Notes: generated by a model from the sequence alone, not told the origin. DNA of 38,061 bases from Candidatus Limnocylindrales bacterium (GCA_035257225.1 DATEXG010000040.1:1-38061), one strand, 5' to 3'. Shown: positions 6,365 through 24,469, counted from the stretch's first letter. Translations and numbers: made by a program.

Positions 6365-7618
6365 CTAGGAGGCGCGGACGGAGGGGTTCGTGTTCCGGCC
6401 CCCGCCGAAGATGCCCAAGAACCCGCTGCCGGACTTGGCCGCGCCGGACTCGCGCGTCGCCATCATCCGGTCGCACAAGGTCTCGATGTCCTCGATGACC
6501 TTCTCTTTCGGGAAGCGCTCCACGGCCGAGCGACCCTCGTTCGCTGCCCGAACGAAGAGCATCCCGGCCGACCGCACCTCTGCCAGCGCCGGCATCCCGA
6601 CCGTCCGCTCCATGTCCGCGACGGAGACGCCGCTGTTGGCGCGATTCACGACCATGGCCAGGCGCTCGCGGATCTCCAGCTCGACGGCCACTTCGCGGAA
6701 CTGGACCGCGGCACGGATGGCGGGCACGTCCGGGGTGACCGGAACGATGATCTTGTCCGCTCGCTCGAAGATGACCTGGTTGAGCGGTCCGTAGTCCGGG
6801 TGCATGTCGACGATGACCCAGTCGTAGACGCGGCAGGCCGTGGTTATGGCCTCCGCTACGCGCTTGGGGTCGAGGATCTCGGTGTGGAGAGGCGACTCTG
6901 CCATCACCAGTACGGAGACGCCGTTCTGATGAGTGGAGGCGATCTCGCTGAACGACTCCGCTACGCCGCTGTCGAAGTCCTCGGTCCAGGCGTCCGCCAC
7001 GGTCCGAACGTTCTCCATGCCCAGCGACGAGGCCACATGGCCGGTCACGGTGTCGCAGTCCACGAGAAGCACACGCTGGTGCTTGCGGACCTGCAGCAGC
7101 GCGGCCGCGTTGACGGCGATCGTCGTCTTGCCCACGCCGCCCTTGGGATTGAAGACGATGACGATCTGACCGCGGCGGGTCTCCGAAGCGGTCTCGATCT
7201 GCGAGTCCGACTCGATGATGGCGCCCCTGGTGTCGTCGATCGAGATCTCGGCCCGAATGAGCATCGCCTCGACCCGCCACCGGAGTGACTCGGCGGAGTA
7301 GGGTCGGGTGAAGTATTCGTCGTTGACGCGCGCTCGGCCGGCGAGACTCATGCGGTCCAGGGCACGGGCCGCAACGACCATGAGGGCCGGGATGTTGCGG
7401 TCCTCATCGTGGAGTATCGCGTACATCTCGAGCGTGCGATCGAAGTCGTTCTCGCCGTCGAGGATGGCCACCCCGATGTCGTGCCGCCTGTTGAGGAGCT
7501 CCTCGAGCTCGTCGGCGGTCTCGACCGCGATCGGCTCGTAGCCAGCCTCAGCGAGCTGTGCGCTCACTGCGACTAGCTCAGATTGCGGTAGAGCAATGGC
7601 GACAGCTGGCCGAGGCAC
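6365..7618 (-). CDS. ParA/MinD/CpaE-type P-loop ATPase with N-terminal degenerate receiver (REC-like) domain
   Basis: Deviant Walker A with signature lysine, IVIVFNPKGGVGKTTIAVN (residues about 152-170). A'-like motif VLLVDCD and Walker B WVIVDMHPD are present. Residues 1-125 follow a CheY-like alternating pattern that keeps a candidate Asp (AILD54) but has RP instead of the KP lysine and Ala instead of Thr/Ser. GTG start. Confidence 0.8.
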   Translation of the reverse strand: MPRPAVAIALPQSELVAVSAQLAEAGYEPIAVETADELEELLNRRHDIGVAILDGENDFDRTLEMYAILHDEDRNIPALMVVAARALDRMSLAGRARVNDEYFTRPYSAESLRWRVEAMLIRAEISIDDTRGAIIESDSQIETASETRRGQIVIVFNPKGGVGKTTIAVNAAALLQVRKHQRVLLVDCDTVTGHVASSLGMENVRTVADAWTEDFDSGVAESFSEIASTHQNGVSVLVMAESPLHTEILDPKRVAEAITTACRVYDWVIVDMHPDYGPLNQVIFERADKIIVPVTPDVPAIRAAVQFREVAVELEIRERLAMVVNRANSGVSVADMERTVGMPALAEVRSAGMLFVRAANEGRSAVERFPKEKVIEDIETLCDRMMATRESGAAKSGSGFLGIFGGGRNTNPSVRAS

Positions 7619-7660
7619 TTGTGACAGGTCTCCTGCGGCGCGAGAGCCGGTCGGTGAAAT

Positions 7661-8587
7661 CTAGCCTTCCGCTTCCGGGTCGTGCGCGGAGACGTTCAGC
7701 ACGCCTTCGCGCTCGCTCACGACGCGAGCCTGGAATGCGGGCAGGGTTGGGATGAGCTGATTCAGCGAGGTGTCCGCGCTGTGACCGACGGTGAAGATGA
7801 ACTCGCCGTCCGGGCCGGACGAGACGCCGACGTTCTTCACGCCCGGCAGACGGCCGACCTGGCGCTTGAACGTGGCGATGCTGGCGACGCTGACGAGTCC
7901 AACCACCACTACCTGAGTCGACTCGACCGAACCCGGCTTGCCGGGGGCTCCGCGACCGCCTGCCAGGCGGGCGTCCGTGGCCTCTTCGGTGAGATCGGGC
8001 GTTGGCTCTGCCTCGGCCGGCTGCGCTCCGTTTGCACCGGCTCCAGTCTCCGCTACCACGGGCCTGACGATTTGCTCGCGGCGGGCACGCAAGTCCTCAG
8101 CGATGCTGGTGCGATCGGAATCGGCGAACTCCGGCGGATCCGGCATCTGGGCTGCCATGCTCGCGAAGACGGTCGGATCGCTTTCCTGCTGGAGCTGCTC
8201 GAAGAACTGGGCAACCTCCTGCTCGAAGCTCGCGACGCGCTTCTGAACGCGCTCGATCTCGAGCTCGATGGCCGAGTTGTATTCCTGGAGCTCCTGCTCG
8301 AGGAGTTCGCGGCGGCGCGAGATGCGCTGCTCGGTCTCGACGCGAATGCGCTCCATCTCGGCCTTGGACCAATCCCGGATGGCGCTTACGTCGGCCTCAG
8401 CGGCCTTTCTCAGCGATGCGGCCTCGTCGTCCGTCCGCGCATGGAGTCGCTCTGTGTACGCCTTGGCATCTGCCTGGCACTGCTCGATCGTCCCCTGCCG
8501 CGCCGTTTCGGCGGTCGAACGCATCGTCAAGATGAGGTCGGCCATGAAGCGGTTCGGGTGACGCGCGGCCGTCTCGTTCACGCTCAT
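7661..8587 (-). CDS. coiled-coil protein (paralog 2) with an extra C-terminal globular domain
   Basis: 308-aa ORF. Residues about 15-165 are heptad-rich (ELLEQELQEYNSAIELEIERVQKRVASFEQEVAQFFEQL) and align along their length with the 8988-9575 product. An Ala/Gly/Pro/Glu linker follows, then an 80-aa domain VVVVGLVSVASIATFKRQVGRLPGVKNVGVSSGPDGEFIFTVGHS... The true start may be the GTG two codons in (GGAG-N6-GTG). Confidence 0.7.
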   Translation of the reverse strand: MSVNETAARHPNRFMADLILTMRSTAETARQGTIEQCQADAKAYTERLHARTDDEAASLRKAAEADVSAIRDWSKAEMERIRVETEQRISRRRELLEQELQEYNSAIELEIERVQKRVASFEQEVAQFFEQLQQESDPTVFASMAAQMPDPPEFADSDRTSIAEDLRARREQIVRPVVAETGAGANGAQPAEAEPTPDLTEEATDARLAGGRGAPGKPGSVESTQVVVVGLVSVASIATFKRQVGRLPGVKNVGVSSGPDGEFIFTVGHSADTSLNQLIPTLPAFQARVVSEREGVLNVSAHDPEAEG

Positions 8588-8682
8588 CTCCCCGTAGTTG
8601 GATTCTCCGGGCCCCGGCCGGGCGCCGGAGAGGTCCCGATTAGGTCACGACCAGATGTGGACATACTAGGCTACTGCGCGGT

Positions 8683-8718
8683 GCCTGAGACTACGCACCA
8701 TTATCGCCGGTCTCAGGC
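8683..8718 (-). promoter_or_regulatory. perfect 9-bp inverted repeat (hairpin) in the 400-bp spacer between the two coiled-coil paralogs
   Basis: GCCTGAGAC (8683-8691) and GTCTCAGGC (8710-8718) are separated by 18 nt. It could be a terminator or processing hairpin, or an operator upstream of paralog 2. There is no U-tract. Confidence 0.3.
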
Positions 8719-8987
8719 CAGCCTCAAGAGCCCGTTTTGTCGGTCCGATCATGGGCCGCGTGTTGCGGCCGGGCACCCCGCTGGAGGTACCAGGACTAAC
8801 GGCCCTTCCGTACCGCCTGCGATTGGGGCGCGAGGTCGCAGCCGCGTGCGGTCTTGCGTAGAGCCAAGGGTTTGACGGTCGCGATTTGCGCGGGTTTCTG
8901 GGCCGCTGCGCTCTGATCGGCCCATCTGTCCGGGTCCTTGCGGTTGGGTCGCCGGAGGATCCGGTTACCACTGGTCCGCAAGGCCTC

Positions 8988-9575
8988 CTACTCCTCGGGG
9001 CTGGATCCGGCTGCAGCCTCCGAGGGCACGGCCTGCTCGTGATGGAGACGATAGTCCTGGACGAGCGTGGCCGAGTCGGGTTCTACGAACGGCGGAGCTT
9101 CCGGCATATGCTCGGCCAGGTAGGTGAACTCGCTGGGGTCGCTGGTCTCCATGAGCTGCTCGAAGGAATGAGCTAGCTCTGCCTCGAAAGCCTGAACGCG
9201 GTCCTGGACACGCTCGATCTCGCCTTCGACGGCGGCTGCGTACTCCTGCAGCTCCTGTTCGAGGAACTCATAGCGCCGCGAGGTTCGTAGCTCGGTCTCC
9301 TGGCGAGTCTTGTCCATCCTTGCCTTGGACCGGCTGCGAAGGGTGCTGATGTCCGCCACCGCGGCTTGCTGCAGGGAGGCCGATTCGCCGCTGGTCTGAG
9401 ACTGCAGATTCTCGACGTACGCCTTCGCGTTTACCTGACACTGGTCGATCGTAGCCCGCCGTTCCGCCTCGGCGGTGACACGCATCGCCTGCGCGAGGTC
9501 CACCAGGAACTGCTTGGGGCGACCTGTGGCCGTATTGTTCACGCTCGTCTCCGTGCGCCTGACGCCGGACGCCAA
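8988..9575 (-). CDS. coiled-coil protein (paralog 1, short form)
   Basis: 195-aa ORF homologous to residues 1-165 of the 7661-8587 product (e.g. EFLEQELQEYAAAVEGEIERVQDRVQAFEAELAHSFEQL, DQCQVNAKAYVENL versus EQCQADAKAYTERL). The ORF-track start at 9575 is TTG. GTG at 9542 has a GGAG-N6 RBS and matches the paralog start region at nucleotide level. Confidence 0.65.
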   Translation of the reverse strand: MASGVRRTETSVNNTATGRPKQFLVDLAQAMRVTAEAERRATIDQCQVNAKAYVENLQSQTSGESASLQQAAVADISTLRSRSKARMDKTRQETELRTSRRYEFLEQELQEYAAAVEGEIERVQDRVQAFEAELAHSFEQLMETSDPSEFTYLAEHMPEAPPFVEPDSATLVQDYRLHHEQAVPSEAAAGSSPEE

Positions 9576-9798
9576 TGGGCGCCCCAGACCGTCGTTGCCC
9601 CGCGCTTGTCCATTGTGTTCGTGCCTGCGAGGACCCGTACCACCTCGATGTCATGATCGCGGATCCCCGAGCCGAAGCGCGCGGGACTCAGGCCTTTGGA
9701 TCATGGCTCGCGTATCGCCGCCGGCCACTGCGCCGAACGTACTATGGCCCGTCGTCTTCGGTACCCCACCTCACCGCGTCGGCGGTGGTACGAGGGCG

Positions 9799-15781: not shown

Positions 15782-17833
15782 ATGTCCCCCGCGGGCGTCA
15801 TCGCCGAGTACCGCCTGCAGGCGCGCCTGATCTGGGAGTGGCGGCCCACTCGGCTTGCGATCGTCCGGCGCACAATCCTGCAGTTCCTTGTGGCGTGCCT
15901 GACGCTAGCCACCGTGGACCTGGTGCTCCCGGAGTTCCACGTGCAGGGACTTGCCGCCATAGCCCTGGGAGGCGCCATGCTGGCCGCGGTCAATGCCGGC
16001 TCGCGCCTGCTGGGGCACTGGCTCCTGGTGGGGCTTCCCCTTCTCGCGGTCGATGGGGTCGCACTCCTCGCACAGTACGTGGCCATCCTCGCTTTGGGTC
16101 GCGTTGTGCCGGGCATCCAGGTGGACGGGCCCGGCACGGCGATCTGGGCGACCGTGTGGCTGACCGCACTCAACGGAGTCCTCGCCGAACTCGTTGCGGT
16201 GAGCGACGACGATTCCTACTACAGCATCCTCGTCCGCCGTCTCGTCGCCCGTCGCGGACGAGATGCCGTATCGAAGGGGCGTGGGCTCCTCGTCGTCCAG
16301 CTGGACGGAGTTGGACGTCCGGTCCTCGAGAATGCCATGCGGGCCGGCCACGTCCCGGTGATCGGGCGGCTCATTCGCACTGGCCGGTCAGCCCTGCATT
16401 CGTGGCAGCCGCTGCTCCCGCCCACCACCCCCGCGAGCCAGGCGGGCATCCTGCATGGTCGCGCCGATGCCGTGCCCGGCTTCCGCTGGTACGAAAAGGA
16501 GACGGGCCGGCTGTTGGTTGCCAACCATCCGGACGATGCGGCCGAGATCTTGCGGCGCATCAGCGACGGCCGCGGTCTGCTTGCCGACGACGGAGCCAGC
16601 ATCGGCAACCTGGTCAGCGGCGATGCGCCACGGAGCTACCTCACCATGGCCACGGTTGGGCGAAAGGAAGCATCCGATGACGGACGCAAGCTGCGCGGCT
16701 TCTTTGTCGGAACGGTCAACTACCTGCGCCTCTTCATGTTGACCCTCGGTGAGATGGCCAAGGAGTTGTATCAGGCCGAGCGCCAGCGAAGCCGTGGCAT
16801 CAGTCCGCGCATGCATCGCGGTCTGTTCTACGCGCTCGAGCGAGCCGTCACGAACGTGGCCCTGCGGACCGTGTCCACGTCTCTGGTGATCGAGGAGATG
16901 TATCGCGGCGCCCCGGTCATCTACGTCGACTACACGGGATACGACGCCGTGGCGCATCACTGCGGTCCGCAACGCCAGGAGGCCATCGACGCGCTGGAGG
17001 GGATCGACCGGTCCATCGGATCGCTCCTGAAGGCTGCTCGGCACGCCGCGCGCAACTACGACCTTGTCGCTCTCTCCGACCATGGTCAGAGCCTCGGCGC
17101 AACCTTTCGGCAGCTCTATGGACAGTCTCTGGAGGCAGTTGTTGCCGCGCTCATCGCGGGAGGGGCGACCGTGATCGGCGGGGGCGACTTGCACGAGCAC
17201 GCGGGAGGCGGCCGACGCATCGCGGGCGAGCTTGGCAGAGGATCGGGGCTGGCGCCCTTCGTGGCTCGCCGCTTCTCCTCCCGACCCAGTCCGAGTCGGT
17301 CCGGCTCTGCCGGGGCTCCGGCGAGCTCAGTCACGCCGGACGTCGTGGTTTGCTCGTCGGGCAGCCTGGCTCACGTCTATTTCACGCAACTGGCCGGCCG
17401 GATGACGCGCGAGGCGATCGAGCAGCGCTATCCGGGGCTGATAGCCGGCCTGGTGCGCCACCCCGGCATCGGGGCGGTCCTGGCATACAGCGAGGATGGG
17501 CGGACGCTCGTCATCGGAGAGAGCGGGGAGCGGACTATTCACGGGACCTCCGGCGCCGCCCCGGATCCTTTGGCCCAGTTTGGGGACGGCGCGAGTGTCG
17601 CCCTGGCGAGCCTGGACGAATTGGCGCACCTGGGGGATCTCATTCTCCTGGGACGGGTCAACCCGGAATCCGGGGAGGTGGTCGGATTCGAGGAGCTCGT
17701 CGGCTCCCACGGAGGGCTCGGGGGGTGGCAGACACAGCCCTTCCTCATGTGCCCTGCCTCGTGGTCGCTCGCGGCCGATCCGATCGTCGGCGCCTCGGCG
17801 ATGCACCGCCAGTTGCGCGACTGGCTGGTATGA
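15782..17833 (+). CDS. membrane-anchored alkaline phosphatase / nucleotide pyrophosphatase-phosphodiesterase family protein
   Basis: An N-terminal multi-TM region of about 150 aa is followed by LLVVQLDGVG...LLPPTTPASQAGILHG (metal/nucleophile Thr region) and DYTGYDAVAHHCG / LSDHGQS motifs typical of the type-I phosphodiesterase superfamily. The start is 3 nt after the Nramp stop (TGACCGATG). Confidence 0.8.
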   Translation: MSPAGVIAEYRLQARLIWEWRPTRLAIVRRTILQFLVACLTLATVDLVLPEFHVQGLAAIALGGAMLAAVNAGSRLLGHWLLVGLPLLAVDGVALLAQYVAILALGRVVPGIQVDGPGTAIWATVWLTALNGVLAELVAVSDDDSYYSILVRRLVARRGRDAVSKGRGLLVVQLDGVGRPVLENAMRAGHVPVIGRLIRTGRSALHSWQPLLPPTTPASQAGILHGRADAVPGFRWYEKETGRLLVANHPDDAAEILRRISDGRGLLADDGASIGNLVSGDAPRSYLTMATVGRKEASDDGRKLRGFFVGTVNYLRLFMLTLGEMAKELYQAERQRSRGISPRMHRGLFYALERAVTNVALRTVSTSLVIEEMYRGAPVIYVDYTGYDAVAHHCGPQRQEAIDALEGIDRSIGSLLKAARHAARNYDLVALSDHGQSLGATFRQLYGQSLEAVVAALIAGGATVIGGGDLHEHAGGGRRIAGELGRGSGLAPFVARRFSSRPSPSRSGSAGAPASSVTPDVVVCSSGSLAHVYFTQLAGRMTREAIEQRYPGLIAGLVRHPGIGAVLAYSEDGRTLVIGESGERTIHGTSGAAPDPLAQFGDGASVALASLDELAHLGDLILLGRVNPESGEVVGFEELVGSHGGLGGWQTQPFLMCPASWSLAADPIVGASAMHRQLRDWLV

Positions 17834-23131: not shown

Positions 23132-24469
23132 CTACCGAACCGCGGTCACCGTGTAGTCGAGCGTGCCGGCCGGCACCTGGACGCGAACCGTCTCGCCGGC
23201 TCGCCGGCCCATCAGCGCGCGTCCGATCGGCGACGTGTAGCTGATTTTGCCGGCCCTGGCATCGGCCTCGGCCGAACCTACGATCGTGAACGTCTCCTCG
23301 CCGTGGCGGTCCGTCTCGATCACGACGGTCGAACCGAGGACGACCACACTGCCCGTACCCTCGGTCTCGATGATCACCGCGCTCTTGATCATCTGCTCGA
23401 GTTGTTGCACGCGACCCTCGAGGAACGACTGCTCCTTGCGGGCGGCGTCGTAGTCGGCGTTCTCGCTGAGATCCCCCAACTCGCGAGCGGCCTTGATGCG
23501 GGAGATGACCTCCGGTCGCCCCCGATTGGCCAGCTCGTCGAGTTCGGTCTGGAGAGCGGCCAGGCCCACGGCCGTGACGTGGGTCGGGGCGGCGGACGAC
23601 CCGCGCGAAGCGGCCGCGTTCTTCGAGGAACGGCGCACCGCCACGGTCTCGATCGCCGACGGACCGGTGGTGGCCATAGGTTTGGGGACCGTCTTGCGAG
23701 GGGTTGACTTGGGCTTTCGGAGACTCGCCGGCCTGGTGGGCCTAGGGGCCCCACCGCGAGCCGGGAGACTGCTGGCCGCCATCTCTTCTTCGTTCGCATC
23801 CGGCAGGACCGTAACCTTGGTGACCCTGGCCGGCCTGTTCGCTTCCGAGTCGTGGAGAGGCGCGGTGATGCCGTGCTCGTGGCGCTGGCCGCTGGGTGTC
23901 GCCAGAACGGCAAACGGGAGTGCGCCGACGCTCTTTTGGAACTGCTCGATCAGCGTGTCCTCGTACAGCTCCGGATCGGCGGTGGGTGCCCACCATATCC
24001 GGGCCTTGTTCAGATCGTGGAGCGTCTTGAGCCAGTAGCCGGCTGATTGCGGCCGGCGCTCACCGAGCTGGGTCTTGAACATCGCCGCCAGTCGCGCGGT
24101 CACGGACTTCTGGCTCGAGCCGATGTAGAGGATGGGCTGACCCGGCAGCCAGAACGACGCAAGGCGCGACTGCAGCTCGGCAACCGACGGTCGCTTGTCG
24201 TCGAGGCGGAGGTCAGGGGCGCGCTCGAGCCATTGGCGGATGGCGTTCGCTTCTATCGAGACTTTGGGCTGTGGAGCCGGCAATTCGACCACGAAGACGC
24301 CCGGGCTGCCGCCCGTAACGGGCCGACCCCACTGGATCGGACCCTCGACGGCCAGGCCGTTGGATCGCAGCAGGTCCCGGCCGTTGAGCGGGGCGGCGGA
24401 GGGGGATGAGGTCGTCACGTGTGAACCGTGCCTTGCTGAAGCCTGGCTTGTCAAACGAGGGCCATCCAC
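23132..24469 (-). CDS. greA: transcription elongation factor GreA fused to an N-terminal extension of about 290 aa (GIY-YIG-like core plus basic linker)
   Basis: The C-terminal 150 aa form a full GreA: LAALQTELDEL...IKAARELGDLSENADYDAARKEQSFLEGRVQQLE (coiled-coil finger with acidic tip), then the globular domain ...ISYTSPIGRALMGRRAGETVRVQVPAG. No stop codon separates it from the upstream protein-like region (PILYIGSSQKSVTARL...YWLKTLH...IWWAPT...YEDTLIEQF). GTG start at 24469. Confidence 0.75.
   Translation of the reverse strand: MDGPRLTSQASARHGSHVTTSSPSAAPLNGRDLLRSNGLAVEGPIQWGRPVTGGSPGVFVVELPAPQPKVSIEANAIRQWLERAPDLRLDDKRPSVAELQSRLASFWLPGQPILYIGSSQKSVTARLAAMFKTQLGERRPQSAGYWLKTLHDLNKARIWWAPTADPELYEDTLIEQFQKSVGALPFAVLATPSGQRHEHGITAPLHDSEANRPARVTKVTVLPDANEEEMAASSLPARGGAPRPTRPASLRKPKSTPRKTVPKPMATTGPSAIETVAVRRSSKNAAASRGSSAAPTHVTAVGLAALQTELDELANRGRPEVISRIKAARELGDLSENADYDAARKEQSFLEGRVQQLEQMIKSAVIIETEGTGSVVVLGSTVVIETDRHGEETFTIVGSAEADARAGKISYTSPIGRALMGRRAGETVRVQVPAGTLDYTVTAVR

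What the first reader, a model, noticed from the sequence alone, without database searches (positions are those of the whole stretch)
6365..9575. Orphan ParA/MinD-type ATPase preceded by two paralogous coiled-coil proteins: candidate uncharacterised positioning/cytoskeletal module
Three co-directional minus-strand genes form a compact unit: coiled-coil paralog 1 (9575 to 8988), coiled-coil paralog 2 (8587 to 7661), and, 42 nt later, an ATPase (7618 to 6365). The ATPase has the deviant Walker A KGGVGKTT typical of ParA/MinD/CpaE proteins.

The REC-like-plus-ATPase architecture is the one known from CpaE/TadZ and the actinobacterial Ssd protein. Those sit in Tad/Flp pilus loci. This window contains no CpaF/TadA secretion ATPase, no TadB/C, no pilin and no prepilin peptidase. 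The flanking genes are an MscS channel and thyX.

ParA-like ATPases generally work with dedicated partner or adaptor proteins. Known examples are ParB, McdB, and the coiled-coil pair PomX/PomY with PomZ. An ATPase paired with two coiled-coil proteins therefore fits a self-organising cargo- or division-site positioning system. I could not assign the two coiled-coil proteins to any named family from sequence alone.
Basis: partly seen in the sequence, partly recalled or inferred. Interest (0 to 1): 0.75.

Follow-up and report, generated by a model that had tools for sequence, protein, structure and literature searches.

The report
Orphan TadZ-like ATPase with novel partner
An uncultured group of soil and freshwater bacteria (Limnocylindria) always keeps a "positioning" ATPase right behind a previously undescribed long-helix protein, which points to an unstudied system for placing something inside the cell, although what it places is unknown.

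Summary
The three genes are real and the two helical proteins are true paralogs (53% identity). The conserved unit is a pair, not a trio.

CC2 (306-308 aa) and the ATPase (417 aa) lie 2-47 nt apart in 78 of 79 informative Limnocylindria (Chloroflexota) genomes, down to 35%/46% identity, while genes were inserted on both sides of the pair. CC1 is a truncated, fast-evolving copy of CC2's N-terminal half. It occurs in only 22 of 45 close species and was duplicated together with its upstream leader.

The ATPase has the TadZ/CpaE architecture: a pseudo-receiver domain plus a ParA/MinD ATPase (best fold match 3fkq). It fails every curated family cut-off and is never near Tad genes (0 CpaF-type motifs in 1.36 Mb). 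It ends in a conserved hydrophobic and basic tail (GFLGIFGGGR) that resembles the MinD membrane anchor.

CC2 is not a heptad coiled coil. It is a ~125-residue hendecad (3.67-residue) helix, then a variable acidic linker, then a ferredoxin-like domain. It has no Pfam, NCBIfam or PDB relative, yet forms 1,128 clusters at 50% identity.

The most likely reading is a Tad-independent, probably membrane-based ParA/MinD positioning or landmark module with a new partner family. The cargo is unknown. I rate it a new variant of a known kind, of moderate interest.

The parts
6365..7618 (-). ParA/MinD-superfamily ATPase, 417 aa, with the TadZ/CpaE-like two-domain architecture
   Evidence: ORF. Pfam AAA_31/CbiA/ParA/MipZ. 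Best NCBIfam model is Ssd/CpaE_hom_Actino at 74 bits, below its 154-bit cut-off. Foldseek top hit 3fkq spans both domains. dN/dS 0.05-0.17.
7244..7618 (-). N-terminal pseudo-receiver (REC-like) domain, residues 1-125
   Evidence: PhoB/OmpR models E 2.7e-6 to 6e-6. AF2 model shows (beta-alpha)5, pLDDT 75-88. Asp54 is invariant, but the acidic pair after beta1 is replaced by L10-P11, the beta4 Thr/Ser by Ala, and the beta5 Lys by Arg105.
7121..7144 (-). Deviant Walker A KGGVGKTT (residues 159-166), including the signature lysine K159
   Evidence: It is invariant in 20 homologs, as are D187/D189 (switch I) and D271 (Walker B).
6368..6448 (-). C-terminal tail (residues 391-417) ...AAKSGSGFLGIFGGGRNTNPSVRAS: candidate membrane-targeting sequence
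   Evidence: Near-invariant in close homologs. The motif class (hydrophobic pair, basic residues, terminal [VI]RA) is kept in 66-67 of 70 orthologs down to 46% identity, and the last 20 aa are always net positive. It resembles the E. coli MinD tail EEKKGFLKRLFGG.
7661..8581 (-). CC2: conserved partner protein, 306 aa from GTG 8581 (the ORF extends to ATG 8587)
   Evidence: It lies 2-47 nt upstream of the ATPase in 78 of 79 informative loci. No Pfam, NCBIfam or PDB family. 1,128 clusters at 50% identity. dN/dS 0.12-0.29.
8183..8557 (-). CC2 long helix (residues 11-135) with hendecad (3.67-residue) hydrophobic periodicity
   Evidence: AF2 predicts a single helix with pLDDT above 95. Periodicity z = 8.2 at 3.67 and z = -0.2 at 3.5. 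Near-invariant sequence.
7928..8065 (-). CC2 hypervariable acidic Ala/Pro/Glu-rich linker (residues ~175-220), predicted disordered
   Evidence: pLDDT below 50. Length and sequence vary between homologs, and the linker is much longer in long-form relatives.
7664..7924 (-). CC2 C-terminal beta-alpha-beta-beta-alpha-beta (ferredoxin/HMA-like) domain (residues 222-308), no metal-binding cysteines
   Evidence: AF2 secondary structure. Foldseek HMA-like hits, best E 5.8e-4, TMt 0.75. Near-invariant. Invariant G230, F240, K241, R242, G261, F263, F265 and H269 across the diverse family.
8582..8987 (-). Leader/spacer upstream of CC2. It contains a conserved 77-nt block (8740-8816), a promoter-like TTGAGG-16-GATAAT (8700-8727) and a conserved GC hairpin (8605-8630) just before the Shine-Dalgarno sequence
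   Evidence: Alignment A4. nhmmer finds the block at a fixed distance from CC2 in all close relatives. Promoter scan. No Rfam match. No convincing covariation.
8988..9542 (-). CC1: accessory paralog of the CC2 N-terminal helix (184 aa from GTG 9542; ORF to TTG 9575). It lacks the linker and the C-terminal domain
   Evidence: 53% identical to CC2. Hendecad periodicity z = 3.8. Present in 22 of 45 close species and in none of the divergent ones. dN/dS 0.32-0.62.
9696..9766 (-). Degenerate second copy of the leader block, upstream of CC1
   Evidence: nhmmer E 1.6e-4 in the window. Stronger second copies occur upstream of CC1 in L027, L029, L032 and L033. The duplication unit was therefore the leader plus the N-terminal half of CC2.

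Best explanation
This is a two-gene operon conserved across the class Limnocylindria. It encodes a Tad-independent ParA/MinD-type positioning or landmark system.

The ATPase has a canonical deviant Walker A, so it should form ATP-sandwich dimers. It also has a non-phosphorylatable receiver-like domain that probably serves protein-protein contacts, and a short hydrophobic and basic C-terminal tail that probably tethers the ATP-bound dimer to the membrane, as in MinD.

CC2 is its cognate partner or scaffold. A long hendecad helix would dimerise or oligomerise, or lie along a surface. A disordered acidic spacer follows, and then a small ferredoxin-like domain that would contact the cargo or self-associate. 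By analogy with ParB, MinE, PomX and McdB, the basic N-terminal end of CC2 (RHPNRF here; the GFRLPW peptide in long forms) is the likely ATPase-contacting and ATPase-stimulating element.

CC1 is a lineage-specific helix-only copy that probably co-assembles with the CC2 helix and modulates it.

Shown: the gene pair, its conservation, the domain anatomy and the absence of Tad genes. Inferred: the physical interaction, membrane binding, ATPase stimulation and any cargo.
For: - Adjacency: the CC2 stop is 2-47 nt from the ATPase start in 78 of 79 informative loci, from 98% down to 35% (CC2) and 46% (ATPase) identity. Unrelated genes (MoaA, PNP, cupin upstream; a DUF6812-like gene and acetyl-CoA synthetase downstream) were inserted on both sides of the pair but never between the two genes.
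- Selection: both genes are under strong purifying selection.
- Catalytic motifs: K159, K164, T165, D187, D189 and D271 are invariant.
- Fold: the best full-length match is 3fkq, followed by ParA, Soj, MinD and FlhG.
- Tail: the motif is conserved as a class and always net positive, while the rest of the protein is acidic (pI 4.9; ATPase domain net -7). It resembles the E. coli MinD tail.
- Partner features typical of this system type: CC2 has a conserved N-terminus, a helix, a disordered linker and a globular end. [quoted passage not shown]
- No Tad genes.
- No defence, phage or plasmid signal.
Against: - No interaction, localisation or activity data exist, and complex modelling was not possible with these tools.
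- The hydrophobic-moment calculation did not single out the tail as amphipathic. The tail is Gly-rich and contains Pro in some lineages (GFRLP), so it could be a protein-docking peptide instead of a membrane anchor.
- The ATPase model is of low confidence (pLDDT 59).
- thyX and MscS stay loosely nearby across the whole class, so part of the synteny reflects general collinearity.
- One genome (L056) has CC2 without an adjacent ATPase.
- The outer taxonomic edge of both families could not be seen, because the hit lists were saturated with Limnocylindria.
Confidence: 0.55

Rival explanations
1. The ATPase is a genuine TadZ/CpaE that localises a Tad/Flp pilus machine encoded elsewhere in the genome. 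CC2 would then be the polar landmark it docks to, as PodJ is for CpaE and RomR is for TadZA.
For: The two-domain architecture and the best fold hit 3fkq. The best NCBIfam model is Ssd/CpaE. Automatic annotations call the protein CpaE. TadZ-type proteins are known to depend on helical or disordered polar hub proteins.
Against: TadZ is described as unique to Tad systems and conserved next to tadA. Here no CpaF/TadA, TadB/C, pilin or peptidase gene lies within +/-10 kb in about 80 genomes (0 T2SSE Walker A motifs in 1.36 Mb; Pfam tables). The Ssd model score is half its cut-off. The Walker A is the canonical KGGxGK[ST].
Confidence: 0.15
2. It is a DNA-based ParA-type partition system in which CC2 plays the ParB-like centromere-binding or adaptor role for the chromosome or another DNA cargo.
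For: The ATPase matches the ParA_partition model nearly as well as Ssd (71 bits) and the PHROG ParA-like family. PDB sequence hits are to Soj/ParA.
Against: All three proteins are strongly acidic (net -15 to -19). CC2 has no HTH or RHH domain and no DNA-binding fold hit. The ATPase ends in a hydrophobic and basic tail, not a basic C-terminal surface. There are no plasmid homologs. All scores are far below the model cut-offs.
Confidence: 0.08
3. CC2 is a surface-coating amphipathic protein (apolipoprotein-, phasin- or PspA-like) for a lipid or polymer inclusion or for stressed membrane, and the ATPase distributes that structure.
For: The sharp 11/3 periodicity. Recurrent sub-threshold hits to Apolipoprotein, phasin, LemA/MamQ and LiaX models.
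Against: All of these hits are far below threshold (23 bits against a 90-bit cut-off). The hydrophobic face is narrow (3 of 11 positions), which is more typical of a coiled-coil seam than of a lipid-binding face. No inclusion-body genes lie nearby.
Confidence: 0.1
4. The adjacency is inherited synteny without functional coupling. The ATPase and CC2 act in unrelated processes.
For: The whole thyX...MscS region is loosely collinear across the class. L056 keeps CC2 without the ATPase next to it.
Against: An intergenic distance of 2-47 nt on the same strand is maintained over deep divergence, while insertions occurred on both sides of the pair only. Both genes are highly constrained.
Confidence: 0.07

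Closest known systems
[quoted passage not shown]
   Same: The same two-domain architecture. The best structural match is 3fkq. From memory, this E. rectale entry is the structure published as TadZ. The best curated HMM is Ssd/CpaE. The receiver domain is degenerate, so phosphorylation is unlikely.
   Different: The gene is never in or near a Tad locus. It scores at half the family cut-off, with 14% identity to 3fkq. It keeps the canonical GK[ST] P-loop lysine and has a conserved hydrophobic and basic C-terminal tail. It is always preceded by a dedicated helical partner gene that Tad loci do not have.
MinD/MinE
   Same: A deviant Walker A ATPase with a short C-terminal tail resembling the MinD membrane-targeting sequence (GFLGIFGG compared with GFLKRLFGG), and a small partner encoded in the same operon.
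   Different: The MinD model scores 49 bits against a 213-bit cut-off. There is no MinC or MinE. The ATPase carries an extra receiver-like domain. The partner is encoded upstream and is unrelated to MinE in sequence and fold.
PomX/PomY/PomZ of Myxococcus xanthus
   Same: A ParA/MinD ATPase working with long helical and disordered scaffold proteins. In PomX an N-terminal peptide activates the ATPase (papers listed). In some lineages here there are two helical proteins.
   Different: No sequence relationship was detected. PomZ uses the nucleoid, whereas this ATPase is acidic and has a membrane-type tail. The second helical protein here is a recent truncated paralog, not a distinct protein.
McdA/McdB carboxysome positioning
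   Same: A two-gene ATPase-plus-partner module in which the partner combines a disordered region with a helical oligomerisation region.
   Different: There are no carboxysome genes. McdA binds DNA. There is no homology to McdB, and the gene order and domain layout differ.
Peripheral-stalk subunits (A/V-ATPase E and G, F-type b)
   Same: A long hendecad helix followed by a small alpha/beta C-terminal domain in CC2, plus a helix-only relative (CC1). This parallels the E and G subunit layout (from general knowledge of these structures).
   Different: Only chance-level scores were obtained (E 0.14-0.86), and the profile search of PDB found nothing. A long disordered linker is present. The genomic partner is a ParA/MinD ATPase, not ATP-synthase genes.

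Membership tests
TadZ/CpaE/Ssd | ParA/MinD-type ATPase domain with a deviant Walker A | tested here: met
   KGGVGKTT; Pfam AAA_31/CbiA/ParA
TadZ/CpaE/Ssd | N-terminal atypical (non-canonical) receiver domain | tested here: met
   REC-like fold. The acidic pair, the Thr and the Lys of canonical receivers are replaced.
TadZ/CpaE/Ssd | Encoded within a tad/cpa locus, next to tadA/cpaF | tested here: not met
   No T2SSE/T2SSF/pilin/peptidase domains in the window or in the annotated relatives. 0 CpaF-type Walker A motifs in 83 sequences totalling 1.36 Mb.
TadZ/CpaE/Ssd | Reaches the curated family HMM cut-off (TIGR03815) | tested here: not met
   74.4 bits against a cut-off of 154.45
TadZ/CpaE/Ssd | Polar localisation and requirement for pilus assembly | not testable with these tools
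   Requires cell biology.
MinD | Reaches the curated MinD HMM cut-off (TIGR01968) | tested here: not met
   49 bits against a cut-off of 212.9
MinD | C-terminal amphipathic membrane-targeting sequence | tested here: inconclusive
   The tail is conserved, hydrophobic and basic, and resembles the E. coli MinD tail, but the hydrophobic-moment test did not discriminate.
MinD | Operon partners MinC and/or MinE | tested here: not met
   No MinC or MinE domain in the window or in the annotated neighbourhoods
ParA/Soj partition ATPase | Curated HMM cut-off (NF041546) and an adjacent ParB-like DNA-binding partner | tested here: not met
   71 bits against a cut-off of 180. The partner CC2 is acidic (net -17) and has no DNA-binding domain.
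DivIVA, apolipoprotein, phasin, V-ATPase E, ATP synthase b (candidates for the helical proteins) | A significant match to the family model or to a solved member | tested here: not met
   Apolipoprotein scores 23 bits against a 90-bit cut-off, all other models have E >= 0.03, and DivIVA gives no hit. PDB searches by sequence and by profile find nothing. Foldseek matches only the generic ferredoxin-like fold of the C-terminal domain.
PomX/PomY-type ATPase-activating scaffold | An N-terminal peptide that stimulates the cognate ParA/MinD ATPase, and self-assembly into a scaffold | not testable with these tools
   Only suggestive evidence: a conserved basic N-terminus in short forms and the MATTDxRxGFRLPW peptide in long forms.

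The most novel reading that the evidence does not exclude
The pair is a previously unrecognised, membrane-based self-organising system, in which a TadZ-like ATPase has been repurposed away from pili. A hendecad scaffold protein with a disordered spacer acts as both landmark and ATPase activator, and the system sets the division site or cell polarity in Limnocylindria. The GFRLP(W) peptide, found both at the N-terminus of CC2 and in the ATPase tail, would mediate competitive docking to a common site.
Probability: 0.2. Interest if true: 0.75.

Novelty: new variant of a known kind. Interest (0 to 1): 0.5.

Why it matters
ParA/MinD ATPases are the main bacterial answer to the problem of placing things inside a cell. 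Each newly characterised partner protein has revealed a new cargo or a new patterning principle, as with MinE, ParB, McdB and PomXY.

This case is a receiver-domain ATPase of the TadZ type that has been uncoupled from pili. It is locked to a large, unannotated partner family (1,128 clusters at 50% identity) across an abundant, uncultured class of soil, peat and lake Chloroflexota.

If the inferred mechanism holds, it would add a new partner architecture (hendecad helix, disordered spacer, ferredoxin-like domain) to the known set. It would also show that the TadZ/CpaE branch has Tad-independent functions. In addition, it provides a family definition that could correct the widespread automatic annotation of these genes as "pilus assembly protein CpaE".

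Tried and rejected
- Remote homology for CC1 and CC2: Pfam, NCBIfam, PADLOC, PHROGs, PDB by sequence, PDB by family profile, and Foldseek. Nothing was found beyond a generic ferredoxin/HMA-like fold for the C-terminal domain. Metal binding was rejected because the domain has no Cys.
- Plasmid origin: no CC2 homolog in 72,556 plasmids.
- Structured RNA in the CC2 leader: no Rfam hit even at E <= 1, and RNAalifold gives -12.8 kcal/mol with a covariation term of -0.23. A riboswitch-like element was therefore not supported.
- The leader block as a remnant of the lost N-terminal coding region: rejected. The block lies upstream of the long-form start codon in L066, and the N-peptide DNA profile has no hit in short-form leaders.
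- Hydrophobic moment as a test for a membrane-targeting sequence: uninformative, because it did not pick out even the E. coli MinD sequence.
- Walking outward from the most divergent ATPase to find non-Limnocylindria relatives and their context: the hit list was saturated by orthologs of at least 61% identity, so the family edge remains unseen.
- The ATPase structure model came out at low confidence (pLDDT 59, shallow alignment), so I use only its domain-level fold matches.
- CC1 as a pseudogene: rejected (intact ORFs, dN/dS 0.32-0.62).
- The second ATPase paralog in L026: it has no helical neighbour and a different tail, so it is a lineage-specific duplicate.


Full report
**1. The observation**

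The three minus-strand ORFs exist exactly where stated: 9575-8988 (195 aa), 8587-7661 (308 aa) and 7618-6365 (417 aa). All three have the high third-position GC of real genes in this 68% GC window.

CC1 and CC2 are true paralogs, 53% identical over 173 aa with E 1e-58. The ATPase carries KGGVGKTT at residues 159-166. It matches the ParA/MinD-superfamily Pfam models and has a receiver-like N-terminal domain (PhoB/OmpR models, E about 1e-6).

The flanks are ThyX upstream and a convergent MscS channel downstream. Pfam scans of the remaining window genes, together with the annotated equivalents in a close relative, show no secretion ATPase, TadB/C, pilin or prepilin peptidase.

Three refinements apply:
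- The ATG at 8587 is mutated in five relatives while the GTG 6 nt downstream and the GGGGAG Shine-Dalgarno sequence are invariant. CC2 therefore most likely starts at 8581 (M-N-E-T-A...). CC1 has the same context at GTG 9542.
- CC1 and CC2 are separated by 400 nt, so the three genes are not a uniformly compact unit.
- The helices are not heptad coiled coils (section 3).

**2. Organism and distribution**

The nearest genome loci are peat and fen MAGs labelled Chloroflexi, Chloroflexota or Candidatus Limnocylindrales. L003, isolate fen_1076, is 98-99% identical in protein. Limnocylindria (formerly Ellin6529) is an uncultured class with genomes of about 69% GC (PMC10608941), which fits the window.

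CC2 has 1,518 relatives and the ATPase 3,153 relatives among the candidates scored in the 5.8-billion-protein collection. The visible ones all come from this lineage and are annotated "hypothetical", "AAA family ATPase" or, automatically, "pilus assembly protein CpaE".

An exhaustive profile search found 1,128 CC2-family clusters at 50% identity, 396 of them at E <= 1e-30. The few taxon labels on those say Chloroflexota, plus one "Patescibacteria group" MAG that is probably mis-binned. A scan of one genome per GTDB species found 526 loci, and the 80 returned are essentially all Limnocylindria-type MAGs.

**3. Anatomy of the proteins**

*ATPase.*
- Catalytic residues K159, K164, T165, D187, D189 and D271 are invariant.
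- The receiver-like domain keeps Asp54. It replaces the acidic pair after beta1 with Leu-Pro, the beta4 Thr/Ser with Ala, and the beta5 Lys with Arg. This holds in all lineages, so it is a pseudo-receiver.
- The Foldseek top hit, and the only one covering both domains, is 3fkq, the E. rectale two-domain protein. From memory, this is the structure published as TadZ. ParA, Soj, MinD and FlhG structures follow. The model is of low confidence (pLDDT 59), so I use these matches only at the level of domain folds.
- All curated models fall far below their cut-offs: Ssd/CpaE 74 of 154 bits, ParA_partition 71 of 180, MinD 49 of 213.
- The protein ends in ...KSGxGF[LM]GIFxGGRNTNPSxRAS. This tail is near-invariant in close homologs. 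It persists as a motif class (hydrophobic pair, basic residues, terminal [VI]RA) in 66-67 of 70 orthologs down to 46% identity. Its last 20 residues are always net positive, whereas the rest of the protein is acidic (pI 4.9).
- The E. coli MinD tail, read from the genome, is EEKKGFLKRLFGG. The resemblance is real. The hydrophobic-moment calculation did not discriminate, so membrane binding remains an inference.

*CC2.*
- The AF2 model gives one continuous helix over residues 11-135 (pLDDT above 95), short helices to residue 174, a disordered linker (175-220) and a beta-alpha-beta-beta-alpha-beta domain (222-289).
- The helix has a very sharp hydrophobic periodicity of 3.67 residues (z = 8.2 against shuffles) and none at 3.5 (z = -0.2). 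CC1 shows the same pattern (z = 3.8). This is hendecad geometry, as in right-handed or straight stalks and in apolipoprotein-type helices. It explains the recurrent sub-threshold Apolipoprotein hits.
- The C-terminal domain matches only generic HMA/ferredoxin-like folds (best E 5.8e-4, TMt 0.75) and has no cysteines.
- Sequence and family-profile searches of PDB find nothing.
- Both structured parts are nearly invariant, while the Ala/Pro/Glu-rich linker is hypervariable.
- In the other Limnocylindria lineages the protein is 390-680 aa long. It has a much longer acidic linker containing DPRLxALGL and ARLAGLVP motifs. It also has an N-terminal extension that begins with a conserved peptide, M-A-T-T-[DE]-x-[RK]-x-G-F-R-L-P-W.
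- The window's lineage has lost this extension. CC2 begins at the helix with the invariant NETAARHPNRF. No GFRLPW-type peptide is encoded anywhere in the window.
- Some divergent ATPases carry GFRLP in their own C-terminal tail. I cannot explain this.

**4. Synteny**

I mapped the window's proteins onto 82 related loci. The ATPase lies directly downstream of CC2 in 78 of them. Three others are cut off by contig ends, and one (L056) truly lacks the ATPase at that position.

The gap between the CC2 stop and the ATPase start is 2-47 nt throughout, which is operon-like. In the divergent lineages (CC2 35-56% identical, ATPase 46-61%), unrelated genes have been inserted on both sides. These are MoaA, a nucleoside phosphorylase and a cupin upstream, and a DUF6812-like gene and acetyl-CoA synthetase downstream. 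None has been inserted between the two genes.

A caveat is that thyX and MscS remain within a few kb across the whole class, so some of the synteny is inherited collinearity.

No CpaF/TadA-type Walker A motif (G-x-TGSGK[ST]T) occurs in any of the 83 sequences, 1.36 Mb in total. TadZ is described as unique to Tad systems and conserved next to tadA (bioRxiv 10.64898/2026.07.08.737194), so that defining feature is not met.

**5. CC1**

CC1 occurs in 22 of 45 close species that have enough upstream sequence, and in none of the roughly 30 divergent loci. It lacks the linker and the C-terminal domain.

It evolves about three times faster than CC2: dN/dS 0.32-0.62, against 0.12-0.29 for CC2 and 0.05-0.17 for the ATPase. 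It is still under purifying selection and its ORFs are intact, so it is a functional accessory gene rather than a pseudogene.

In a neighbour-joining tree the CC1 copies are long-branched and basal to the tight CC2 clade. That fits one or two old duplications followed by frequent loss.

The duplication carried the upstream leader with it. A second, weaker copy of the conserved leader block sits upstream of CC1, at 9766-9696 in the window and more clearly in L027, L029, L032 and L033.

**6. The leader**

The 400-nt spacer contains a 77-nt block (8816-8740, minus strand; GGTAC-N19-GTACC followed by CTCCAGCGGGGTGCC...GCAACAC...CCATGAT). This block is nearly invariant at a fixed distance, ending about 150 nt before the CC2 start, in all close relatives whether or not CC1 is present. 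Its core is also found upstream of long-form CC2 in L064 and L066.

Downstream of the block are a promoter-like TTGAGG-16-GATAAT and a conserved GC hairpin (8630-8605) just before the Shine-Dalgarno sequence.

There is no Rfam match and no convincing covariation. A promoter/operator region plus a 5'-UTR hairpin is the simplest reading, but it is untested.

**7. Interpretation**

The general rules for this ATPase family are as follows (PMC11407121). ATP-sandwich dimers bind a matrix. A partner protein, usually through its N-terminal region, stimulates hydrolysis and release. A C-terminal amphipathic tail indicates a membrane matrix, and a basic surface indicates DNA.

On those rules, the most economical explanation is a dedicated, probably membrane-based positioning or landmark module made of the ATPase and CC2, with CC1 as a lineage-specific modulator of the CC2 helix. 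The acidity of all three proteins and the absence of any DNA-binding domain argue against a ParABS-like system.

The TadZ-for-a-distant-Tad-locus rival cannot be excluded without whole genomes, but it conflicts with the defining genomic context of TadZ. The cargo is unknown.

Nothing in the searched literature describes this module.

**8. Verdict**

It is a new variant of a known kind. The principle (a ParA/MinD ATPase plus a partner) is known. The partner family is new and unannotated, and the TadZ-type ATPase operates outside Tad loci.

Interest is moderate (0.5). The module is clearly real, deeply conserved and misannotated across an abundant uncultured class. Its mechanism rests on analogy, and the organisms are not yet tractable.

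Noticed in passing
window 8740-8816 (minus strand); weaker second copy at 9696-9766: A 77-nt non-coding block (GGTAC-N19-GTACC followed by CTCCAGCGGGGTGCC...GCAACAC...CCATGAT) is nearly invariant upstream of CC2 in all close Limnocylindria relatives, and its core is present in two long-form lineages (L064, L066). There is no Rfam match and no clear covariation. It may be an operator or promoter element specific to this operon.
   Followed up: partly
window 8605-8630 (minus strand): A conserved GC-rich hairpin (CTCCGGCGCCCGGCCGGGGCCCGGAG) lies about 15 nt upstream of the CC2 Shine-Dalgarno sequence. A few compensatory changes are seen in relatives. It could control translation or mRNA stability.
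   Followed up: partly
L052-L082 (for example L057, L061, L065, L078); ATPase tails of L054, L060-L062, L065, L069, L071: Long-form CC2 proteins start with a conserved peptide, MATTDxRxGFRLPW, which the window's lineage has lost. The same GFRLP peptide appears in the C-terminal tail of the ATPase in some lineages. This suggests a shared docking site, but it remains unexplained.
   Followed up: partly
L056:9608-11133: This is the only full-length locus in which CC2 is not followed by the ATPase. CC2 directly abuts the DUF6812-like gene and a frameshifted acetyl-CoA synthetase.
   Followed up: partly
L026:2540-3823 (minus strand): A second ATPase paralog (63% identity) with the same REC-plus-ATPase layout but a different Arg-rich tail and no helical neighbour. 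It sits next to a 346-aa Ser/Pro-rich protein that looks secreted.
   Followed up: partly
window 23132-24469 (minus strand): A 445-aa ORF in which the GreA/GreB domains occupy only residues 298-444. Either GreA carries an N-terminal extension of about 300 aa or the start codon is over-called. The GreA in relative L026 is 164 aa.
   Followed up: no
window 15782-17833 (plus strand): A 683-aa protein that combines an N-terminal 4-TM holin-like region (Phage_holin_4_2, just below its cut-off) with a type I phosphodiesterase/nucleotide pyrophosphatase domain. This is an unusual fusion.
   Followed up: no
L059:12312-12944 (minus strand), L084:11329-11982 (minus strand): In the divergent lineages a DUF6812-containing gene of about 210 aa is consistently convergent with the ATPase, lying between it and acetyl-CoA synthetase. 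It is absent from the window's lineage.
   Followed up: no
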